In this document: in pieces, positions 12,633-56,098 of the stretch
Layout of the letters: each line of letters opens with the position of its first letter
Numbering within the stretch: position 1 is the stretch's first letter
Program-made: the position numbers and the translations under genes
The notes under the pieces: model-generated
Told to the model about the DNA's origin: nothing
Databases searched by the model: none
What the model saw: only the letters and a program-made list of their open reading frames with translations
Source: Candidatus Acidiferrum sp.
GTDB lineage: Bacteria > Acidobacteriota > Terriglobia > Acidiferrales > UBA7541
Assembly (NCBI GenBank): GCA_035576885.1
Contig: DATLVZ010000005.1
Coordinates: 13,927 to 77,926, forward strand
Direction: 5' to 3'
Length of the DNA: 64,000 nucleotides

Positions 12633-13421
12633 ATGCAAACCGTCGAAGAACGAAAGGTCATCGAGGCCGAGTTTCACGACAAGTTGCGCGACCCTGCGCT
12701 CTTGGACGACCCTGAGCTATATGCAAAGCTGACCTCGAACAAGAAGTGGTACAAAATTGCAAAGCGGAGTCGTGAATACACCGAAAACTATCTTCGCGAG
12801 CATAGTTCCGGTTCTTATGCACTCGATTTCGCCTGTGGTGACGGCTATTACTCTTTGCTTATGGCTGAAGCCGGGGCTGATGTGGTCGGGATAGATATCT
12901 CTGACGTTTCGGTACGGAACGCGGAACGGGAGGCTGCTGAACGAGGTCTGGGGGCGCGCTTCCAAGTGATGGATTGCGAAGCGATGACCTTTCCGGATTG
13001 CACATTTGACCTGATCAACGTCAACGGCGTCCTCCATCATATGGATTTGAATCGTGCCTATCCCGAACTGGCGCGCGTTCTGAAGCCCACCGGATCAGTC
13101 CTGTGTGTCGAGGCGCTTGCGCACAACCCTGTTTTCCAGGCTTACCGGAAGCTGACGCCGCATCTGAGAACGGAGTTTGAGACAGATCATATTCTCCGCC
13201 GCAAGGACATTGTAAGTGCCCGCAAATACTTCAATCGGATTGAATGGCGCTTCTTTCACCTCGCAAGTCTCGCCGCTGTTCCTTTTAGGAACTCGCGAGT
13301 TTTTGATCCTCTTCTGGCTTCATTAGAGAGGGTGGACTCAACCCTGCTAAGTGTTTCCCCGATTCGGTGGTGGGCATGGCAGATTGGGTTTGTACTTTCT
13401 GAGCCGAAGGCGTCCGCATGA
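12633..13421 (+). CDS. Class I SAM-dependent methyltransferase
   Basis: Motif I LDFACGDGYYS and post-I VVGIDIS. ATG 12633 is preferred over the track start at 12576. Confidence 0.8.
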   Translation: MQTVEERKVIEAEFHDKLRDPALLDDPELYAKLTSNKKWYKIAKRSREYTENYLREHSSGSYALDFACGDGYYSLLMAEAGADVVGIDISDVSVRNAEREAAERGLGARFQVMDCEAMTFPDCTFDLINVNGVLHHMDLNRAYPELARVLKPTGSVLCVEALAHNPVFQAYRKLTPHLRTEFETDHILRRKDIVSARKYFNRIEWRFFHLASLAAVPFRNSRVFDPLLASLERVDSTLLSVSPIRWWAWQIGFVLSEPKASA

Positions 13422-52007: not shown

Positions 52008-52943
52008 ATGAAATGCACACGGCCCTTTCTGGGAATGATTCTTCTCCTGATGGTGCACGTTGCGATCATCTCGGCACAGCCCCAAAAACAATCGAGTACG
52101 GCCACCGCGCCTCCTAGACTTCTTCTCCTCGTTCACCAGCAATTCAAATTCGGAGGTGAGAGCGAGCGCCAAAAACTTGAAGCCGCAATGGTGCGCGCAT
52201 GTGACCGCCTGGACGTCCCCAACTCCTGGATCGATCTCCAATCCATTACCGGACCGCCGGAAGCACTATCTTTCGATCCCCTGGATTCCTTTGAGCAGTT
52301 GGAGACGGCCTCCGTTGCATGGGAGCAACTCTATGCGTCCCATCCAAAGCTTTCGCTATTGCAGGACCAAATCAGGGCGCTGGTGACGAGTGAAAGTTCG
52401 ATCATCGCGGTTCGGCGCGATGATCTCGGCTATCGCGTAAACCGCATCGATCTATCCAAGGCACGATTCATGCGCGTCCTAGAAGTGCGTGTTCGGCCCG
52501 GTCATGATACCGATTTCGTCGAGTCCTTCAAGCTCCTTGGCGCGGCCTATGAAAAAATCGACGCGGACATGCCTTGGGTGGTCTATCAAGTGAACGCGGG
52601 AATGCCTTCGCCAACCTTTCTCGTTTTTGTTCCAATGCGTGCGCTAAAGGAAAACGACAGCTATCTCGCCCGCGCCCCTAAGCTTCATGAAGCCGAAGGC
52701 GAGCTGAACGCCGATCGCATGCACCAAATCGCGCTCGATGCCTACGAGAGTACCGAGAGAAATCTCTACGCTATTAGCCCCGTGACGTCCCACGTACCCA
52801 AGGAGTTTATCGACAGCGATCCCGATTTCTGGTCGCAAAAGCCATCCGCTGAAGCGAGACCTCAGGCCACGGGCGAGACCGGAGAGGCCTCAATGGGAAA
52901 AGGTGGCGAAGCACACCAGAAGCAATCGCTCCCGAATTTTTAG
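52008..52943 (+). CDS. Secreted hypothetical protein
   Basis: GGAGG lies before the ATG. Signal peptide MKCTRPFLGMILLLMVHVAIISAQ. No recognisable motif. Confidence 0.5.
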   Translation: MKCTRPFLGMILLLMVHVAIISAQPQKQSSTATAPPRLLLLVHQQFKFGGESERQKLEAAMVRACDRLDVPNSWIDLQSITGPPEALSFDPLDSFEQLETASVAWEQLYASHPKLSLLQDQIRALVTSESSIIAVRRDDLGYRVNRIDLSKARFMRVLEVRVRPGHDTDFVESFKLLGAAYEKIDADMPWVVYQVNAGMPSPTFLVFVPMRALKENDSYLARAPKLHEAEGELNADRMHQIALDAYESTERNLYAISPVTSHVPKEFIDSDPDFWSQKPSAEARPQATGETGEASMGKGGEAHQKQSLPNF

Positions 52944-53490: not shown

Positions 53491-54147
53491 TCAGCGTGCG
53501 ACCCGCGGAAGTGGGCCGAAATACCGGTAGTGCCCAGTAATCTTCCAGTCGAACAACACATCTTCCATCTTTGGCCCTTGCCCGATGTTGTGAACTATCA
53601 GGAATCGCCCGCTCTCTGCAGATTTCCCGTTTACAACAATCCCGATGTGTGGCACACCTCCGCCCAAGTCCCAGGTCACAAGGTCGCCGGGCGAATAGCC
53701 CTTCGCACGCGATGAAATCGGCAGGCTCTCTCCCATACGGCTGAAAAACACCATCAGATTCGGCACGCGACGGTGATCGATGTTCTGGTCCGGATGCGCC
53801 TGGTGCCACTTCGATTTCGCCGGATAATCCGTCCAGTTGAGCACCATGTCCTCGTGAACTTCCTTTTGCAAATCCACACCAACAGCTCGGTAGGCGCGAA
53901 TAATTTCATCGGAACAGACGCCAGTGCCGGCGGGCACGTCTCCGCCGGGATAATCCAGATGGACATACGAGGAAACGTAGTTCACGGAATGATTTGTGCG
54001 CTCGATCGCCGCCGCCACGAGTTTATCGAGAAACTGCTGGCGCTCATTCGGGGTTGTGGGATTCGTTTGCGCAAGCGCGGCTAAGACTGCCGCACACAAT
54101 GAAAACGCAAGCGCGAGGAGCCTCTTGCTGTGAGAATGGAAAGCCAT
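53491..54147 (-). CDS. DUF1287-like secreted protein
   Basis: Signal peptide MAFHSHSKRLLALAFSLCAAVLAALAQ. DYPGGDVPAGTGVCSDEIIRAYRAVGVDLQ...PGDLVTWDLGGGVPHIGIV, assigned from family recollection. Confidence 0.5.
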   Translation of the reverse strand: MAFHSHSKRLLALAFSLCAAVLAALAQTNPTTPNERQQFLDKLVAAAIERTNHSVNYVSSYVHLDYPGGDVPAGTGVCSDEIIRAYRAVGVDLQKEVHEDMVLNWTDYPAKSKWHQAHPDQNIDHRRVPNLMVFFSRMGESLPISSRAKGYSPGDLVTWDLGGGVPHIGIVVNGKSAESGRFLIVHNIGQGPKMEDVLFDWKITGHYRYFGPLPRVAR

Positions 54148-54232
54148 CGTTCGAATCTTATCGCATTCGTTCCGTGTGTGAGCGGTGCTTCGTCCCGAAT
54201 GACCAAAACTTGAACGGCCGGCGAAGAGGCAA

Positions 54233-54766
54233 TCAGGGGAGTGCGGCGAGGAGAGCAGCGGTGCTGGCGTTGTCACCGAACGTTGCGCTGGTATGAGAAA
54301 AAAGGTCCACGTTGTCTGGCCCGAAAACAAAACTTCCGCCAAGCTGGAATGGATTTTTTCCGAGTTTGTGTTGATGATGGCCGGCTTCATGCGCTCGCTT
54401 GCGTGCTTCCGCGTTGTCGCCGCGCAGGAGATGAAAAAGATTGGCGGACTTCAGGTCCGCAGCGCGATAGGCCTGACGCTGTTCGTCAATTAAGAGGGGA
54501 AAAGTGATCCCGGTCTCCTTCCGAAACTCCCTGGCGTAAACAGGATCGCCGAGGCCAATTGCGGCGAGAACTGCTCCTTTGCCGCGAAAGGCTTGTTCAT
54601 GTTCGCGCAACTGCGCGACGTGCTCGCGGCAAAAGATTCAGCCGTAGTGACGCAGGAAAACCACGACGGCGGGTTGCTTATCCCACAAGGAGCCGAGCCG
54701 CGTCTCGCGGCCGTCGCAATCGGGAAGGGTGATAAAGGCGAGCTTATTGCTGAAAGAAGTTTCCAT
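54233..54766 (-). CDS. Peroxiredoxin-like (AhpC/TSA_2, PRXL2-type) protein with an in-frame TGA at the redox-motif position; candidate selenoprotein (UxxC), or alternatively a nonsense pseudogene
   Basis: ATG 54766 ...PAVVVFLRHYG-TGA(54640-54638)-IFCREHVAQLREHEQAF... continues in frame into track ORF 54233..54610. The total is 178 codons including the stop. A stem-loop follows the TGA. Confidence 0.6.
54576..54635 (-). promoter_or_regulatory. SECIS-like stem-loop immediately 3' of the in-frame UGA
   Basis: In mRNA sense, CUUUUGCCGCGA (54635-54624) pairs over 12 bp (one G-U) with UCGCGGCAAAGG (54587-54576). This encloses the hairpin UCGCGC-AGUU-GCGCGA (54618-54603). Confidence 0.45.
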
Positions 54767-54881
54767 GCCATGCCCATCTTGTGCAGCGCGCATGGCACTG
54801 TCAAGCGCTCCGTTAGCAAGCTCAGAGTTTCAGCACCAGATCCCTTGATTTCCTTTCTGCCGCGGCCGTTCTGCCGGCGTG

Positions 54882-54887
54882 TATAAT
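54882..54887 (+). promoter_or_regulatory. Candidate -10 box (TATAAT) implying a near-leaderless transcript
   Basis: A perfect TATAAT, preceded directly by TG, ends 11 nt before ATG 54899. There is no Shine-Dalgarno sequence in between and no convincing -35. Confidence 0.3.
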
Positions 54888-54898
54888 CCTGCTCCGCC

Positions 54899-56098
54899 AT
54901 GAAAGACCCAACTCCGGTTTCGCCGATTCCCTCCGGCATGCAACGCCAGCAACAGATTTACACGGCTGGTTTGCAAGGCGCATCGCTCTCCATTCCGATT
55001 TCTCTTGCTCTTCTGGAACAAAAAGCAAAGGAAATCCTTTCGCCGGCTGCTAACGATTACGTCGCCGGAGGTGCGAGCGGAGAAGATACGGTGCGCGCCA
55101 ATCGCGAGGCCTTTTACCGCTGGAGGATCGTGCCTCGCATGCTGCGCGACGTTTCGCAACGAGATTTGAGCGTTGAGCTGTTTGGTTCGCGGCTGCCAGC
55201 GCCGATGATCCTCGGCCCCGTGGGAGTTCAGGGCATTCTTCATGCGGAAGGGGAAATCGCATCTGCTCGCGCAGCGGCTTCGCTCAGCTTGCCATTTGCG
55301 CTCAGCACTGCCTCAAGCCGGACGATCGAGGAAGTGGCCCAAGCAACCGACAGCGCGGGGGGCAGCCTCCGTTGGTTTCAACTTTATTGGGGAAGGAATC
55401 CTGATTTGACGGCGAGCATGTTGCAACGGGCGGAGCGCGCCGGATACCAGGCGCTGATCGTCACCCTTGACACAAGTATGCTCGCTTGGCGTGAGCGCGA
55501 CCTTCAGCACGCCTATTTGCCTTTTATCCTCGGCCAGGGCCTCGCCAATTACTTCAGCGATCCCGTTTTTCGCGCGCTGCTTCCGCAGCCGCCGGAGCAG
55601 AATCCGGGTGCGGCGATTCAAGTCTGGAGCAGCCTCTTTTCCAACACTGCCCTCACCTGGAAGGACCTTCCATTTCTCCGCAAGCACACCCGGGTTCCGA
55701 TTATATTGAAGGGCATTCTGCATCCGGAAGATGCGGCGCTCGCAGTCGACGCCGGAGTTGACGGTCTGGTTGTCTCGAATCATGGCGGCCGTCAGGTGGA
55801 CGGCGCTATCGCCACGCTTGATGCTCTCCCCGTGATCGTCCGACAAGTAAACGGACGGATTCCCGTACTGTTCGACGGAGGCATTCGACGCGGTGCCGAC
55901 GTGTTCAAGGCACTCGCGCTGGGTGCTCGCGCCGTCCTGCTCGGCCGTCTCTACACCTGGGGCCTGACAGTGGCCGGCGAACAGGGCGTCCGCGATGTTG
56001 TTCTGAATCTGCTTGCCGATTTTGACCTCACGCTGGCGCTCAGCGGTCACACATCATGCCGAGCTTTGGATCCTACGGCCTTGAGCAATGCAGAGTAG
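54899..56098 (+). CDS. FMN-dependent alpha-hydroxy-acid oxidase/dehydrogenase (lactate oxidase / 2-monooxygenase-like)
   Basis: RWRIVPRMLRDVS...APMILGPVG...LVVSNHGGRQVDGAIATLDAL...DGGIRRGADVFKALALGA. Confidence 0.85.
   Translation: MKDPTPVSPIPSGMQRQQQIYTAGLQGASLSIPISLALLEQKAKEILSPAANDYVAGGASGEDTVRANREAFYRWRIVPRMLRDVSQRDLSVELFGSRLPAPMILGPVGVQGILHAEGEIASARAAASLSLPFALSTASSRTIEEVAQATDSAGGSLRWFQLYWGRNPDLTASMLQRAERAGYQALIVTLDTSMLAWRERDLQHAYLPFILGQGLANYFSDPVFRALLPQPPEQNPGAAIQVWSSLFSNTALTWKDLPFLRKHTRVPIILKGILHPEDAALAVDAGVDGLVVSNHGGRQVDGAIATLDALPVIVRQVNGRIPVLFDGGIRRGADVFKALALGARAVLLGRLYTWGLTVAGEQGVRDVVLNLLADFDLTLALSGHTSCRALDPTALSNAE

What the first reader, a model, noticed from the sequence alone, without database searches (positions are those of the whole stretch)
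54233..54766. In-frame TGA at the first Cys position of the CxxC motif of a peroxiredoxin-like gene: candidate selenoprotein missed by ORF calling
Seen: track ORF 54233..54610 starts (TTG) in the middle of a thioredoxin-fold domain. The same frame is open upstream to ATG 54766 except for one TGA at 54640-54638. The joined 177-residue product reads METSFSNKLAFITLPDCDGRETRLGSLWDKQPAVVVFLRHYG-[TGA]-IFCREHVAQLREHEQAFRGKGAVLAAIG… The overlapping 149-aa track ORF 54490..54939 is in another frame and has no recognisable features. TGA is used as an ordinary stop elsewhere in the window, for example in the ATGA overlaps at 13418, 17662 and 24838. Established: in the peroxiredoxin-like/PRXL2 (AhpC-TSA_2) family the motif is (R)H(F/Y)GCxxC(R). 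Bacterial selenocysteine almost always replaces a redox Cys, and UxxC Prx-like/thioredoxin-fold selenoproteins have been described from computational selenoproteome surveys. Inference: the codon encodes Sec (U43). The alternative is a recent TGC/TGT-to-TGA nonsense mutation or a read error.
Basis: partly seen in the sequence, partly recalled or inferred. Interest (0 to 1): 0.8.

Follow-up and report, generated by a model that had tools for sequence, protein, structure and literature searches.

The report
Missed selenoprotein gene in soil Acidobacteria
The "stop" codon inside this small antioxidant-type gene almost certainly codes for selenocysteine: it is kept in all 80 related soil-bacterial species checked, next to an RNA hairpin of the known bacterial type, so this is a real but fairly ordinary selenoprotein that gene callers routinely cut short.

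Summary
On the minus strand one frame runs from ATG 54766 to the stop at 54233, interrupted only by TGA 54640-54638.

- All 80 species-level genome relatives (67-93% protein identity, mostly Acidobacteriota/Terriglobia) carry TGA at this codon, with an intact frame on both sides.
- dN/dS is 0.17 upstream and 0.10 downstream, so both halves are translated.
- The codon aligns with the first Cys of CxxC in Cys homologues and sits at the N-cap of helix 1 of a thioredoxin fold. The best structural match is human PGFS/PRXL2B.
- A 6-bp hairpin with an AGUU loop lies 25 nt after the UGA and meets all four published bacterial SECIS criteria.
- Its codons (GCG CAG TTG CGC) are frozen in 79 of 83 TGA forms and drift in 4 of 5 true Cys forms.
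- TGA is otherwise a normal stop here, including for this gene.

The selA/B/C/D genes could not be checked. The fold family (AhpC-TSA_2/Prx-like2; NCBIfam "SelL-related redox protein") already has selenoprotein members, so I call this a new member of a known kind. It is widespread, consistently mis-annotated, and only moderately surprising.

The parts
54233..54766 (-). Complete selenoprotein gene: 177 codons plus the terminal stop. It is an AhpC-TSA_2 / Prx-like2 thioredoxin-fold protein with a U43-I-F-C46 motif.
   Evidence: Frame shown. Pfam PF13911 58.9 bits and PF00578 50.3 bits. NCBIfam NF040769 128 bits against a cutoff of 120. Orthologues are intact in 80/80 genomes. dN/dS is 0.17 upstream and 0.10 downstream of the TGA.
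54764..54766 (-). Most likely start codon (ATG; M-E-T-S-F-S…).
   Evidence: In several orthologues a stop lies only 1-2 codons upstream of the homologous M/V-E-x-S start (L001, L007, L010, L011). The upstream ATG at 54793 is therefore not conserved as coding.
54638..54640 (-). In-frame TGA = selenocysteine codon (U43), the N-terminal redox residue of the UxxC motif.
   Evidence: TGA at this codon in 80/80 genome loci and 6 metagenome loci. It aligns with Cys in Cys homologues and with the first Cys of the ResA CxxC.
54629..54631 (-). TGC codon for C46, the presumed resolving Cys of the UxxC motif.
   Evidence: Cys in all 83 distinct TGA-form sequences, always TGC. Invariant in the Cys homologues.
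54603..54618 (-). Bacterial SECIS hairpin: 6-bp stem UCGCGC/GCGCGA (nt 23-28 and 33-38, counting the U of UGA as 1) with apical loop A-G-U-U (nt 29-32 = 54612-54609).
   Evidence: MFE is -9.4 kcal/mol (-10.2 with flanking bases) and the spacing from UGA to loop is 25 nt. Pairs 24-37 to 28-33 are paired in 82-83 of 83 sequences and the loop is AGUU in 82/83. Codons 51-54 show zero synonymous variation while other conserved codons show 1-2.3 bits. These codons are relaxed in 4 of 5 distinct Cys forms (Fisher p = 1.4e-4).
54608..54610 (-). The TTG that gene callers take as the start of the truncated 125-aa ORF. It is really Leu53, the invariant UUG spanning the loop and 3' arm of the SECIS.
   Evidence: ORF 54233..54610 starts at this TTG. 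The codon is TTG in 82/82 sequences with Leu at this position. 88 of the 120 best database clusters are 125-136-aa truncated calls.
54233..54235 (-). Terminal TGA stop of the same gene, with no SECIS after it.

Best explanation
The gene at 54766-54233 (minus strand) encodes a 177-residue cytoplasmic thioredoxin-fold oxidoreductase of the AhpC-TSA_2 / Prx-like2 family. Codon 43 (UGA) is decoded as selenocysteine.

Inferred decoding mechanism: while the ribosome is on the UGA, a GC-rich hairpin 20-35 nt downstream in the coding sequence (stem UCGCGC/GCGCGA, loop AGUU) recruits SelB·GTP·Sec-tRNASec, as in other bacterial selenoprotein mRNAs. The UGA that ends the gene has no such hairpin and terminates translation.

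Inferred chemistry, by analogy with the PRXL2/thioredoxin CxxC mechanism: the selenolate of U43, at the N-cap of helix 1, attacks an oxidised substrate (a hydroperoxide, endoperoxide or disulfide). C46 resolves the adduct to an intramolecular selenenylsulfide. A thioredoxin-type reductant then recycles the enzyme.

Shown here: conservation of the UGA, coding constraint on both sides, the position of the residue in the fold, and the RNA-level constraint on the hairpin. Inferred: SelB dependence, actual selenium incorporation, the substrate and the reductant.
For: - TGA is at the homologous codon in 80/80 species-level genomes at 67-93% amino-acid identity, with exactly one intact frame of about 42 + 134 codons.
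- dN/dS is 0.17 for the 40 codons upstream and 0.10 downstream.
- Column 43 is Cys in Cys homologues. P0001 is a true TGT at the same syntenic locus.
- The residue aligns with the first Cys of the ResA CxxC.
- In the AlphaFold model of the Cys orthologue (pLDDT 92.6), residue 43 lies at the start of helix 44-55.
- The best PDB fold match is human PGFS/PRXL2B (TM 0.82/0.88), whose entry title names the C44/C47 pair.
- The hairpin meets all four bSECIS criteria quoted in PMC13188914: 4-nt loop on a 6-bp stem, G at loop position 2 followed by U, 25-nt spacing, and -9.4 to -10.2 kcal/mol. 82/83 sequences reach -7.5 kcal/mol or lower.
- Codons GCG CAG TTG CGC have zero synonymous entropy against 1-2.3 bits elsewhere. 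Their joint probability under the family's own codon usage is 0.018 per lineage, and only 2.5% of synonymous recodings fold as well.
- The constraint is lost in Cys-codon forms.
- TGA is an ordinary stop in 15 of 36 long ORFs.
- Acidobacteria are a documented Sec-decoding phylum (PMC1794560; PMC13582414).
Against: - No selA, selB, selD or tRNA-Sec was found in the window or in 1.46 Mb of relatives' flanking DNA. This is uninformative rather than negative, but the machinery has not been demonstrated for this genome.
- No Rfam family matches the hairpin.
- The stem is nearly invariant, so there is almost no true compensatory covariation. Support comes from frozen synonymous sites, not from covarying pairs.
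- The whole 66-nt stretch does not fold better than shuffles (z = -0.77). Only the local hairpin is special.
- There is no experimental evidence of selenium incorporation.
Confidence: 0.93

Rival explanations
1. The UGA is read through, but not as selenocysteine. An opal-suppressor or non-canonical tRNA inserts Cys, Ser, Trp or Gly at this codon. Candidates are the acidobacterial allo-tRNAs, or a SelC*-type tRNA-Cys that uses SelB and the same hairpin.
For: PMC5389517 reports that Acidobacteria carry allo-tRNAs with 8/4 and 9/3 structures that may act as missense or nonsense suppressors. It also reports that a selC* tRNA-Cys may act as an opal suppressor in delta-proteobacteria. The Sec machinery was not demonstrated for this genome.
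Against: The UGA sits exactly on a redox Cys position, with the site-specific hairpin expected for SelB-dependent recoding. A general suppressor would not need a local hairpin. It would also conflict with TGA ending 15 of 36 long ORFs, including this gene. According to PMC5389517, selC* genes were found in Firmicutes, Thermodesulfobacteria, Nitrospirae and Proteobacteria, not in Acidobacteria. If Cys were the inserted residue, there would be no reason to hold TGA rather than TGC/TGT in 80 of 80 species.
Confidence: 0.04
2. The annotation is right. Translation stops at the UGA, or starts after it, and the functional product is the 125/134-aa C-terminal fragment, possibly with a separate 42-51-aa N-terminal peptide. 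The hairpin would then serve some other purpose, such as re-initiation or mRNA stability.
For: Public gene calls list 88 of the 120 best clusters as 125-136-aa proteins. Some pipelines also call a separate 51-aa ORF upstream.
Against: A fragment starting at residue 44 or 53 would lack strand β1 and the redox residue, and would cut helix 1 of a fold that is modelled as one compact domain. The upstream 42 codons are under purifying selection in the same frame as the downstream part in all species. There are never indels that break the shared frame. The apparent TTG start is simply the frozen Leu53 codon of the hairpin. Cys homologues are single 177-aa proteins.
Confidence: 0.02
3. The TGA is a sequencing or assembly error, or a recent TGC/TGT-to-TGA nonsense mutation, and the gene is a pseudogene.
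For: None beyond the bare presence of a stop codon. One-base variants at this codon do exist in relatives: TGT in L087 and GGA in L089.
Against: The same TGA appears in 80 independent species-level assemblies and 6 metagenome contigs from different projects and sequencing technologies, with dS around 1.7 between them. The frame is intact and under strong purifying selection on both sides.
Confidence: 0.005

Closest known systems
Eukaryotic selenoprotein U / PRXL2A-C family (Prx-like2 domain; includes prostamide/prostaglandin F synthase PRXL2B)
   Same: Same Pfam domain (AhpC-TSA_2) and same fold. Human PGFS is the best PDB match (TM 0.82/0.88, rmsd 2.0 Å), with its C44/C47 pair matching U43/C46 here. 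SelU members carry Sec or Cys and have a Prx-like2 domain (PMC3473315).
   Different: Only about 20% sequence identity. SelU uses a eukaryotic 3'-UTR SECIS, whereas this gene has an in-coding bacterial hairpin. This protein is bacterial and stands alone. Its substrate is unknown, and prostaglandin chemistry is not expected.
Selenoprotein L (SelL) and NCBIfam NF040769 'SelL-related redox protein'
   Same: The protein scores above the curated cutoff of NF040769 (128 against 120 bits). SelL is described as a Prx-like selenoprotein occurring in both prokaryotes and eukaryotes (PMC2398784).
   Different: From my own knowledge (Shchedrina et al. 2007, which I could not retrieve), SelL proper has a UxxU diselenide motif. 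This protein has UxxC. The NCBIfam score is only just above the cutoff, so it is a peripheral member. I could not see whether the NCBIfam entry mentions Sec-containing members.
Bacterial 'AhpC/TSA family protein' selenoprotein (pfam13911 / cd02970, UxxS motif) from the Olavius algarvensis symbiont metagenome
   Same: This is the only bacterial selenoprotein listed for this domain in the 2022 and 2026 inventories (PMC9312934; PMC13188914). Sec is at the first position of the redox motif.
   Different: The listed motif is UxxS; here it is UxxC with an invariant resolving Cys. The lineage (soil Acidobacteriota) and habitat also differ. By those reviews' own rule, a different Sec motif defines a different subfamily.
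Prx-like thiol:disulfide oxidoreductase selenoproteins (PF00578, UxxC/UxxU; for example Geobacter WP_010940744.1)
   Same: Thioredoxin-fold, Prx-like, with a UxxC motif and Sec at the N-terminal position. They are predicted by the same Cys/Sec-pair plus bSECIS logic (PMC1794560; PMC13188914). This protein also passes PF00578 (50.3 bits).
   Different: I could not retrieve that sequence for a direct comparison. This protein's best family assignments are PF13911 and NF040769, not PF00578. The known members come mainly from anaerobic Deltaproteobacteria.
E. coli fdhF-type bacterial SECIS
   Same: A hairpin inside the coding region just 3' of the UGA, with a G-U in a small apical loop, which is the SelB-binding logic. 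It meets the general bSECIS model.
   Different: The loop G-U is at nt 30-31, whereas from my own knowledge it is at nt 23-24 in fdhF. This hairpin has a perfect 6-bp stem with no bulged U. There is no sequence similarity and no Rfam match.

Membership tests
Bacterial selenoprotein gene (Sec-UGA recoding) | The in-frame UGA aligns with a Cys, usually a redox Cys, in homologues (a Cys/Sec pair). | tested here: met
   Column 43 is Cys in 11 of 15 full-length homologues and is the first Cys of CxxC. True TGT/TGC codons were verified in L087, L090 and L097-L101.
Bacterial selenoprotein gene (Sec-UGA recoding) | TGA-containing orthologues exist in other organisms, with coding conservation on both sides of the TGA. 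| tested here: met
   80/80 species-level genomes. dN/dS is 0.17 upstream and 0.10 downstream.
Bacterial selenoprotein gene (Sec-UGA recoding) | A bSECIS lies downstream of the UGA: 3-9-nt loop on a 4-16-bp stem, G in the first two loop positions, 16-37 nt spacing, MFE ≤ -7.5 kcal/mol (model quoted in PMC13188914). | tested here: met
   Loop AGUU, 6-bp stem, 25-nt spacing, -9.4/-10.2 kcal/mol. 82/83 orthologues reach -7.5 or lower. The synonymous sites are frozen only in TGA forms.
Bacterial selenoprotein gene (Sec-UGA recoding) | selA, selB, selD and tRNA-Sec (selC) are present in the same genome. | not testable with these tools
   None was found in the 64-kb window or in 1.46 Mb of relatives' flanks. 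The phylum is known to include Sec users (PMC1794560; PMC13582414).
Bacterial selenoprotein gene (Sec-UGA recoding) | Selenium is physically incorporated at the UGA position. | not testable with these tools
   This needs 75Se labelling or LC-MS/MS.
AhpC-TSA_2 / Prx-like2 (PRXL2, SelU) family | Pfam PF13911 match above the gathering score. | tested here: met
   58.9 bits against a cutoff of 27, covering residues 53-159.
AhpC-TSA_2 / Prx-like2 (PRXL2, SelU) family | Thioredoxin fold with the CxxC-type motif at the N-terminus of helix 1, and structural similarity to a solved PRXL2 protein. | tested here: met
   Model pLDDT 92.6, strand 33-37 followed by helix 44-55. Human PGFS 9usa has TM 0.82/0.88 and rmsd 2.0 Å. 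The model is of the 76%-identical Cys orthologue P0001, not of the window protein itself.
NCBIfam NF040769 SelL-related redox protein | Score at or above the curated cutoff. | tested here: met
   128 bits against a cutoff of 120, E = 2.8e-37, nearly full length.
Selenoprotein L proper | UxxU motif (two Sec residues forming a diselenide). | tested here: not met
   The motif is U-I-F-C. Position 46 is TGC (Cys) in 83/83 sequences.
Canonical peroxiredoxin (Prx, including Sec-Prx) | PxxxT/SxxC(U) peroxidatic motif (quoted as PxxxTxxU in PMC13188914). | tested here: not met
   The sequence around the motif is R39-H-Y-G-U43-I-F-C46. There is no Pro at -7 and no Thr/Ser at -3 relative to C46, and Sec occupies the first position of the motif, not the second.
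Listed bacterial cd02970/PF13911 selenoprotein (UxxS form) | UxxS Sec motif. | tested here: not met
   The motif here is UxxC. The domain is the same, but by the reviews' rule it is a different subfamily (PMC9312934).

The most novel reading that the evidence does not exclude
This could be an uncatalogued UxxC subfamily of the AhpC-TSA_2/Prx-like2 fold, a bacterial counterpart of eukaryotic SelU/SelL. It would be almost universally a selenoprotein across soil Acidobacteriota (Terriglobia), with a related clade in MAGs labelled Binatus or delta-proteobacteria. It carries an unusually invariant 12-nt SECIS core (GCGCAGUUGCGC). That would make selenocysteine use a routine trait of one of the most abundant, largely aerobic soil phyla. 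This runs against the statement in a recent review that aerobic bacteria rarely retain selenoproteins (PMC13188914). It would also provide a simple sequence probe for Sec use in soil metagenomes.
Probability: 0.4. Interest if true: 0.5.

Novelty: new member of a known kind. Interest (0 to 1): 0.4.

Why it matters
The practical issue is annotation. At least 88 of the 120 closest database clusters represent this gene as a 125-136-aa fragment lacking its active site. At least one more was rescued only by translating TGA as Trp with the wrong genetic code. NCBI records name the fragment "AhpC/TSA family protein".

Correct annotation restores a redox enzyme with a Sec/Cys active site in dozens of soil Acidobacteriota species.

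On the biology, a selenoprotein held in 80 of 80 sampled species implies a maintained selenocysteine machinery and a selenium requirement in a dominant soil phylum. The invariant SECIS core also offers a clean model for SelB-SECIS recognition outside the Proteobacteria and Firmicutes.

It does not reveal a new mechanism. UxxC thioredoxin-fold selenoproteins with in-coding SECIS hairpins are the commonest kind of predicted bacterial selenoprotein.

Tried and rejected
- Whole-region fold of UGA+60 nt: no better than shuffles (z = -0.77), so I dropped the long outer helix seen in the window's MFE structure. It is not conserved in orthologues. Only the local hairpin is supported.
- Rfam at gathering threshold and at permissive E-value: only chance-level miRNA/snoRNA hits and no SECIS family.
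- Sec machinery: tblastn with E. coli SelA/SelB/SelD against the window and all loci and ARAGORN on the window and 88 loci found nothing. This is uninformative, because only ±10 kb around each orthologue is held.
- Functional link through gene neighbourhood: the divergent FMN-dependent dehydrogenase/oxidase and the downstream DUF1287 gene looked like a conserved cluster in the first loci. They co-occur in only 15-17 of 80 genomes, so I rejected this as a functional clue.
- Other selenoprotein genes in the window: a scan for ORF pairs joined by a TGA gave 95 candidates. Apart from this gene, those with a redox-like context were adjacent same-frame genes or junk frames.
- Homologues with W, G or R at column 43, considered as possible natural substitutions: the 'W' of P0008 is a TGA translated with another code, the 'G' of P0016 is a real GGA, and the 'R' of P0004 was not checked.
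- The SelL paper could not be retrieved. The text of the BSepDB paper does not name this family or Acidobacteriota, and no supplements are held, so prior listing there remains unknown.
Full report
**Observation**

The product is METSFSNKLAFITLPDCDGRETRLGSLWDKQPAVVVFLRHYG-[TGA]-IFCREHVAQLREHEQAFRGK… through to …AALLAALP-[TGA].

- The internal TGA is at 54640-54638.
- The mechanical ORF list shows the 125-aa TTG ORF 54233..54610, a 51-aa ORF 54638..54793, and an out-of-frame 149-aa ORF 54490..54939. The 149-aa ORF has no Pfam match.
- With Cys in place of the stop, the joined protein matches AhpC-TSA_2 (7.8e-16), AhpC-TSA (2.9e-13) and Redoxin.
- TGA is an ordinary stop in this genome: 15 of 36 long ORFs end in TGA, as does this gene.

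**Is the TGA real and conserved?**

A protein search returned 2,479 homologues. Of the 120 best clusters, 88 are 125-136-aa proteins that cover only the part after the TGA. That is the footprint of the same "truncation" in many diverged sequences.

I fetched the DNA for some of these. The TGA, and a conserved in-frame N-terminal region upstream of it, are present in orthologues only about 80% identical, at a syntenic locus.

A scan of one genome per species returned 385 relatives, and the 80 best were kept (67-93% identity). By record title they are almost all Acidobacteriota/Terriglobia MAGs: Ca. Acidoferrum/Acidiferrales, Bryobacteraceae, Terriglobales, Ca. Angelobacter and Ca. Sulfotelmatobacter. 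Four are labelled Binatus or delta-proteobacterium, two Verrucomicrobiia and one Methylomirabilota.

All 80 have TGA at the homologous codon, flanked by a single intact frame of about 42 and 134 codons (L059 resolved). Pairwise Nei-Gojobori estimates give dN/dS = 0.17 for the upstream 40 codons and 0.10 downstream, with dS near saturation at about 1.7. The upstream part is therefore translated, in the same frame as the downstream part. A read error, a recent nonsense mutation and a pseudogene are all excluded.

**Which residue is it?**

In full-length homologues column 43 is the first Cys of an invariant G-C-[IL]-F-C-R motif. Checking the DNA of the exceptions gave:

- The 'W' in P0008 is a TGA translated with another genetic code.
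- P0001 is a genuine TGT at the same syntenic locus.
- P0016 is a genuine GGA.

The sequence aligns with the CxxC of ResA so that U43 matches the N-terminal Cys.

An AlphaFold model of the 76%-identical Cys orthologue P0001 is confident (pLDDT 92.6, pTM 0.89). It places residue 43 between strand 33-37 and helix 44-55, the classical thioredoxin-fold active-site position. The best solved-structure match is human prostamide/prostaglandin F synthase (PRXL2B; TM 0.82/0.88, rmsd 2.0 Å), whose entry title names the C44/C47 pair. ResA and the BCP/AhpE peroxiredoxins follow. NCBIfam places the protein in NF040769, "SelL-related redox protein" (128 bits against a cutoff of 120).

**Is there a SECIS?**

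Counting the U of UGA as nt 1, nt 23-38 form UCGCGC-AGUU-GCGCGA (window 54618-54603). The hairpin alone folds at -9.4 kcal/mol, or -10.2 with one flanking base on each side.

The published bacterial SECIS model is quoted in PMC13188914. All four requirements are met, and 82 of 83 distinct orthologous sequences reach the energy threshold.

| Requirement | Here |
|---|---|
| 3-9-nt loop on a 4-16-bp stem | 4-nt loop, 6-bp stem |
| G in the first two loop positions, usually followed by G or U | A-G-U-U |
| 16-37 nt between the UGA and the loop | 25 nt |
| MFE ≤ -7.5 kcal/mol | -9.4 / -10.2 kcal/mol |

The hairpin lies in a conserved peptide (V-A-Q-L-R-E), so the informative test is at synonymous sites.

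- Across 83 distinct TGA-form sequences, codons 51-54 are GCG CAG TTG CGC with essentially zero codon entropy. Every other conserved 4- or 6-fold-degenerate codon in the gene shows 1.0-2.3 bits.
- Under the family's own codon usage, the joint probability of that codon set is 0.018 per lineage. Only 2.5% of synonymous recodings of the peptide fold as stably.
- Five of the six stem pairs are paired in 82-83 of 83 sequences, and the rare changes are C-G to U·G. The loop is AGUU in 82 of 83. Sliding the 3' arm by ±1-3 nt drops pairing from 96% to 14-67%.

The decisive control is the Cys-codon forms. A metagenome scan for HYG-C-IFCREH encoded with TGY found five contigs, four of them distinct.

- The hairpin codons drift in these four sequences: GCT/CTA/CGT in L100, CTG/CGG in L098, CGG in L101, and Gln to Glu in L097/L099. 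Only the closely related TGT form L087 keeps the hairpin.
- The contrast is 79/83 intact against 1/5, Fisher p = 1.4e-4.
- A distant Cys paralogue (P0062) has no hairpin at all.

The RNA constraint therefore exists only where the codon is UGA, as expected for a SECIS.

One side effect is worth noting. The TTG that gene callers take as the start of the 125-aa ORF (54610) is the frozen Leu53 codon spanning the SECIS loop and 3' arm. That explains why the same mis-call recurs in so many species.

**What could not be shown**

No tRNA gene and no Rfam family is found in the window. tblastn with E. coli SelA, SelB and SelD (loci) finds nothing in the window or in 1.46 Mb of orthologue flanks. No tRNA-Sec is found in 88 loci. 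These searches cover only a sliver of each genome, so the machinery is untested rather than absent.

The literature shows the phylum includes Sec users. Zhang et al. 2006 list 4 selenoproteins in 3 families for Acidobacteria (PMC1794560). A 2026 study finds Sec-containing hydrogenases in Acidobacteriota MAGs (PMC13582414).

An alternative decoder cannot be formally excluded: acidobacterial allo-tRNAs proposed as suppressors, or a SelC*-type tRNA-Cys (PMC5389517). It fits poorly, though, with a site-specific hairpin, with TGA serving as a normal stop elsewhere, and with strict retention of TGA rather than TGC/TGT.

**Surroundings**

- The gene is flanked by a divergently transcribed FMN-dependent α-hydroxy-acid dehydrogenase/oxidase gene (54899-56098, +).
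- Downstream on the same strand is a DUF1287 gene. Its true extent is 53491-54147; the longer 299-aa ORF in the list overlaps the 3' end of the selenoprotein gene and is an artefact.
- Further out are a GNAT acetyltransferase, a CMAS-like methyltransferase and ThiC.
- This order is shared with the closest relatives, but FMN_dh and DUF1287 accompany the gene in only 15 and 17 of 80 genomes. The gene is stand-alone, and the neighbourhood says little about its function.
- No promoter-like site was found. The one terminator-like site lies inside the gene and is at chance level.
- No second in-frame-TGA gene stands out in the window.

**Mechanism**

Shown: a conserved UGA at the N-terminal redox position of a thioredoxin-fold UxxC motif, followed by a hairpin under UGA-specific RNA constraint.

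Inferred:
- SelB·GTP·Sec-tRNASec binds the AGUU hairpin and delivers Sec at codon 43. The terminal UGA lacks such a hairpin and terminates.
- The U43 selenolate attacks an oxidised substrate (peroxide or disulfide).
- C46, invariant and always TGC, resolves the intermediate to a selenenylsulfide.
- A thioredoxin-type system recycles the enzyme.

The protein is not a canonical peroxiredoxin. It lacks the PxxxTxxC/U peroxidatic motif, and Sec occupies the first position of the motif, not the second.

**Comparison with what is known, and novelty**

- Thioredoxin-fold UxxC selenoproteins, including "Prx-like" ones, are the most common class of predicted bacterial selenoproteins (PMC1794560, PMC2398784, PMC13188914).
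- The Prx-like2/AhpC-TSA_2 fold has eukaryotic Sec members: SelU (PMC3473315) and SelL (PMC2398784).
- The two recent inventories list one bacterial selenoprotein with this domain, but with a UxxS motif, from the Olavius symbiont (PMC9312934; PMC13188914). Neither lists a UxxC form, NF040769 or Acidobacteria for this domain.
- I could not query BSepDB (57,630 entries, 111 families).

I therefore classify the finding as a new member of a known kind. It is possibly an unlisted subfamily. It stands out for being fixed as Sec in every one of 80 sampled species of a dominant soil phylum, and for being mis-annotated nearly everywhere. It is not mechanistically new.

**Verdict**

- Observation: confirmed.
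- Interpretation: supported (confidence 0.93 that the codon is decoded as Sec through a bacterial SECIS).
- Interest: moderate (0.4).

Noticed in passing
L088 77-610 (protein P0008); probably also P0037: A public gene call gives a full-length 177-aa protein with Trp at position 43. The DNA has TGA there, so the contig was translated with a TGA=Trp code, and the tool reported 'translates_to_query: no'. Some 'full-length Trp' homologues in protein databases are therefore hidden Sec forms.
   Followed up: partly
L087 2618-3151 (TGT); L089 6001-6525 (GGA); P0004 (Arg at column 43): There are occasional one-base departures from TGA. One is a Cys (TGT) form at the same syntenic locus and one is a Gly (GGA) form, and both still carry the intact hairpin. 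They look like recent Sec-to-Cys and Sec-to-Gly conversions, or errors. P0004 has Arg and a degraded HYG motif (FMQHDGR); its DNA was not checked.
   Followed up: partly
L020, L022, L023, L025 (MAGs labelled Ca. Binatus or delta proteobacterium), nt 22-39 after the UGA: This clade has GUU…GAC in place of GUC…GAA around the hairpin. C24-G37 becomes U·G, while G22·A39 becomes a G-C pair, which extends the stem to 7 bp. This is the only hint of compensatory change in the element.
   Followed up: partly
window 54620-54631 (nt 10-21 after the UGA; codons C46 R47 E48 H49): Synonymous variation is also strongly reduced just 5' of the hairpin: TGC 83/83, CGC 70/83, GAG 76/81. In the window this stretch pairs with nt 51-60 in the MFE fold, but that partner region is not conserved in orthologues. 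The reason for the extra constraint is unexplained; it could be spacer identity, a lower stem or the ribosome footprint.
   Followed up: no
window 53491-54390 (-): The 299-aa ORF in the mechanical list overlaps the 3' end of the selenoprotein gene by 158 nt in another frame. The real DUF1287 gene is 218 aa (53491-54147) and begins MAFHSHSKRLLALAFSLCAAVLAALAQ, which looks like a signal peptide. That matches the 194-218-aa orthologues in L001-L003.
   Followed up: yes
L001 9169-9651, L002 9195-9677, L087 1990-2472, compared with window 54767-54898: In several relatives a 160-aa MamF_MmsF-family membrane protein gene lies between the FMN_dh gene and the selenoprotein gene. It is absent from the window and from L003-L006, where the two genes are directly divergent.
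   Followed up: no
window 52008-52943 (+): A 311-aa ORF with a signal-peptide-like N-terminus has no Pfam match. Homologues were found in only 9 of the 80 related loci.
   Followed up: no
L008 and L044 (labelled Verrucomicrobiia); L065 (labelled Methylomirabilota): The orthologue in L008 is 93% identical to the window protein and those in L044 and L065 are 72-73% identical, yet the MAGs are labelled as other phyla. Mis-binning or mislabelling of the MAGs, or horizontal transfer, could explain this. I did not examine it.
   Followed up: no
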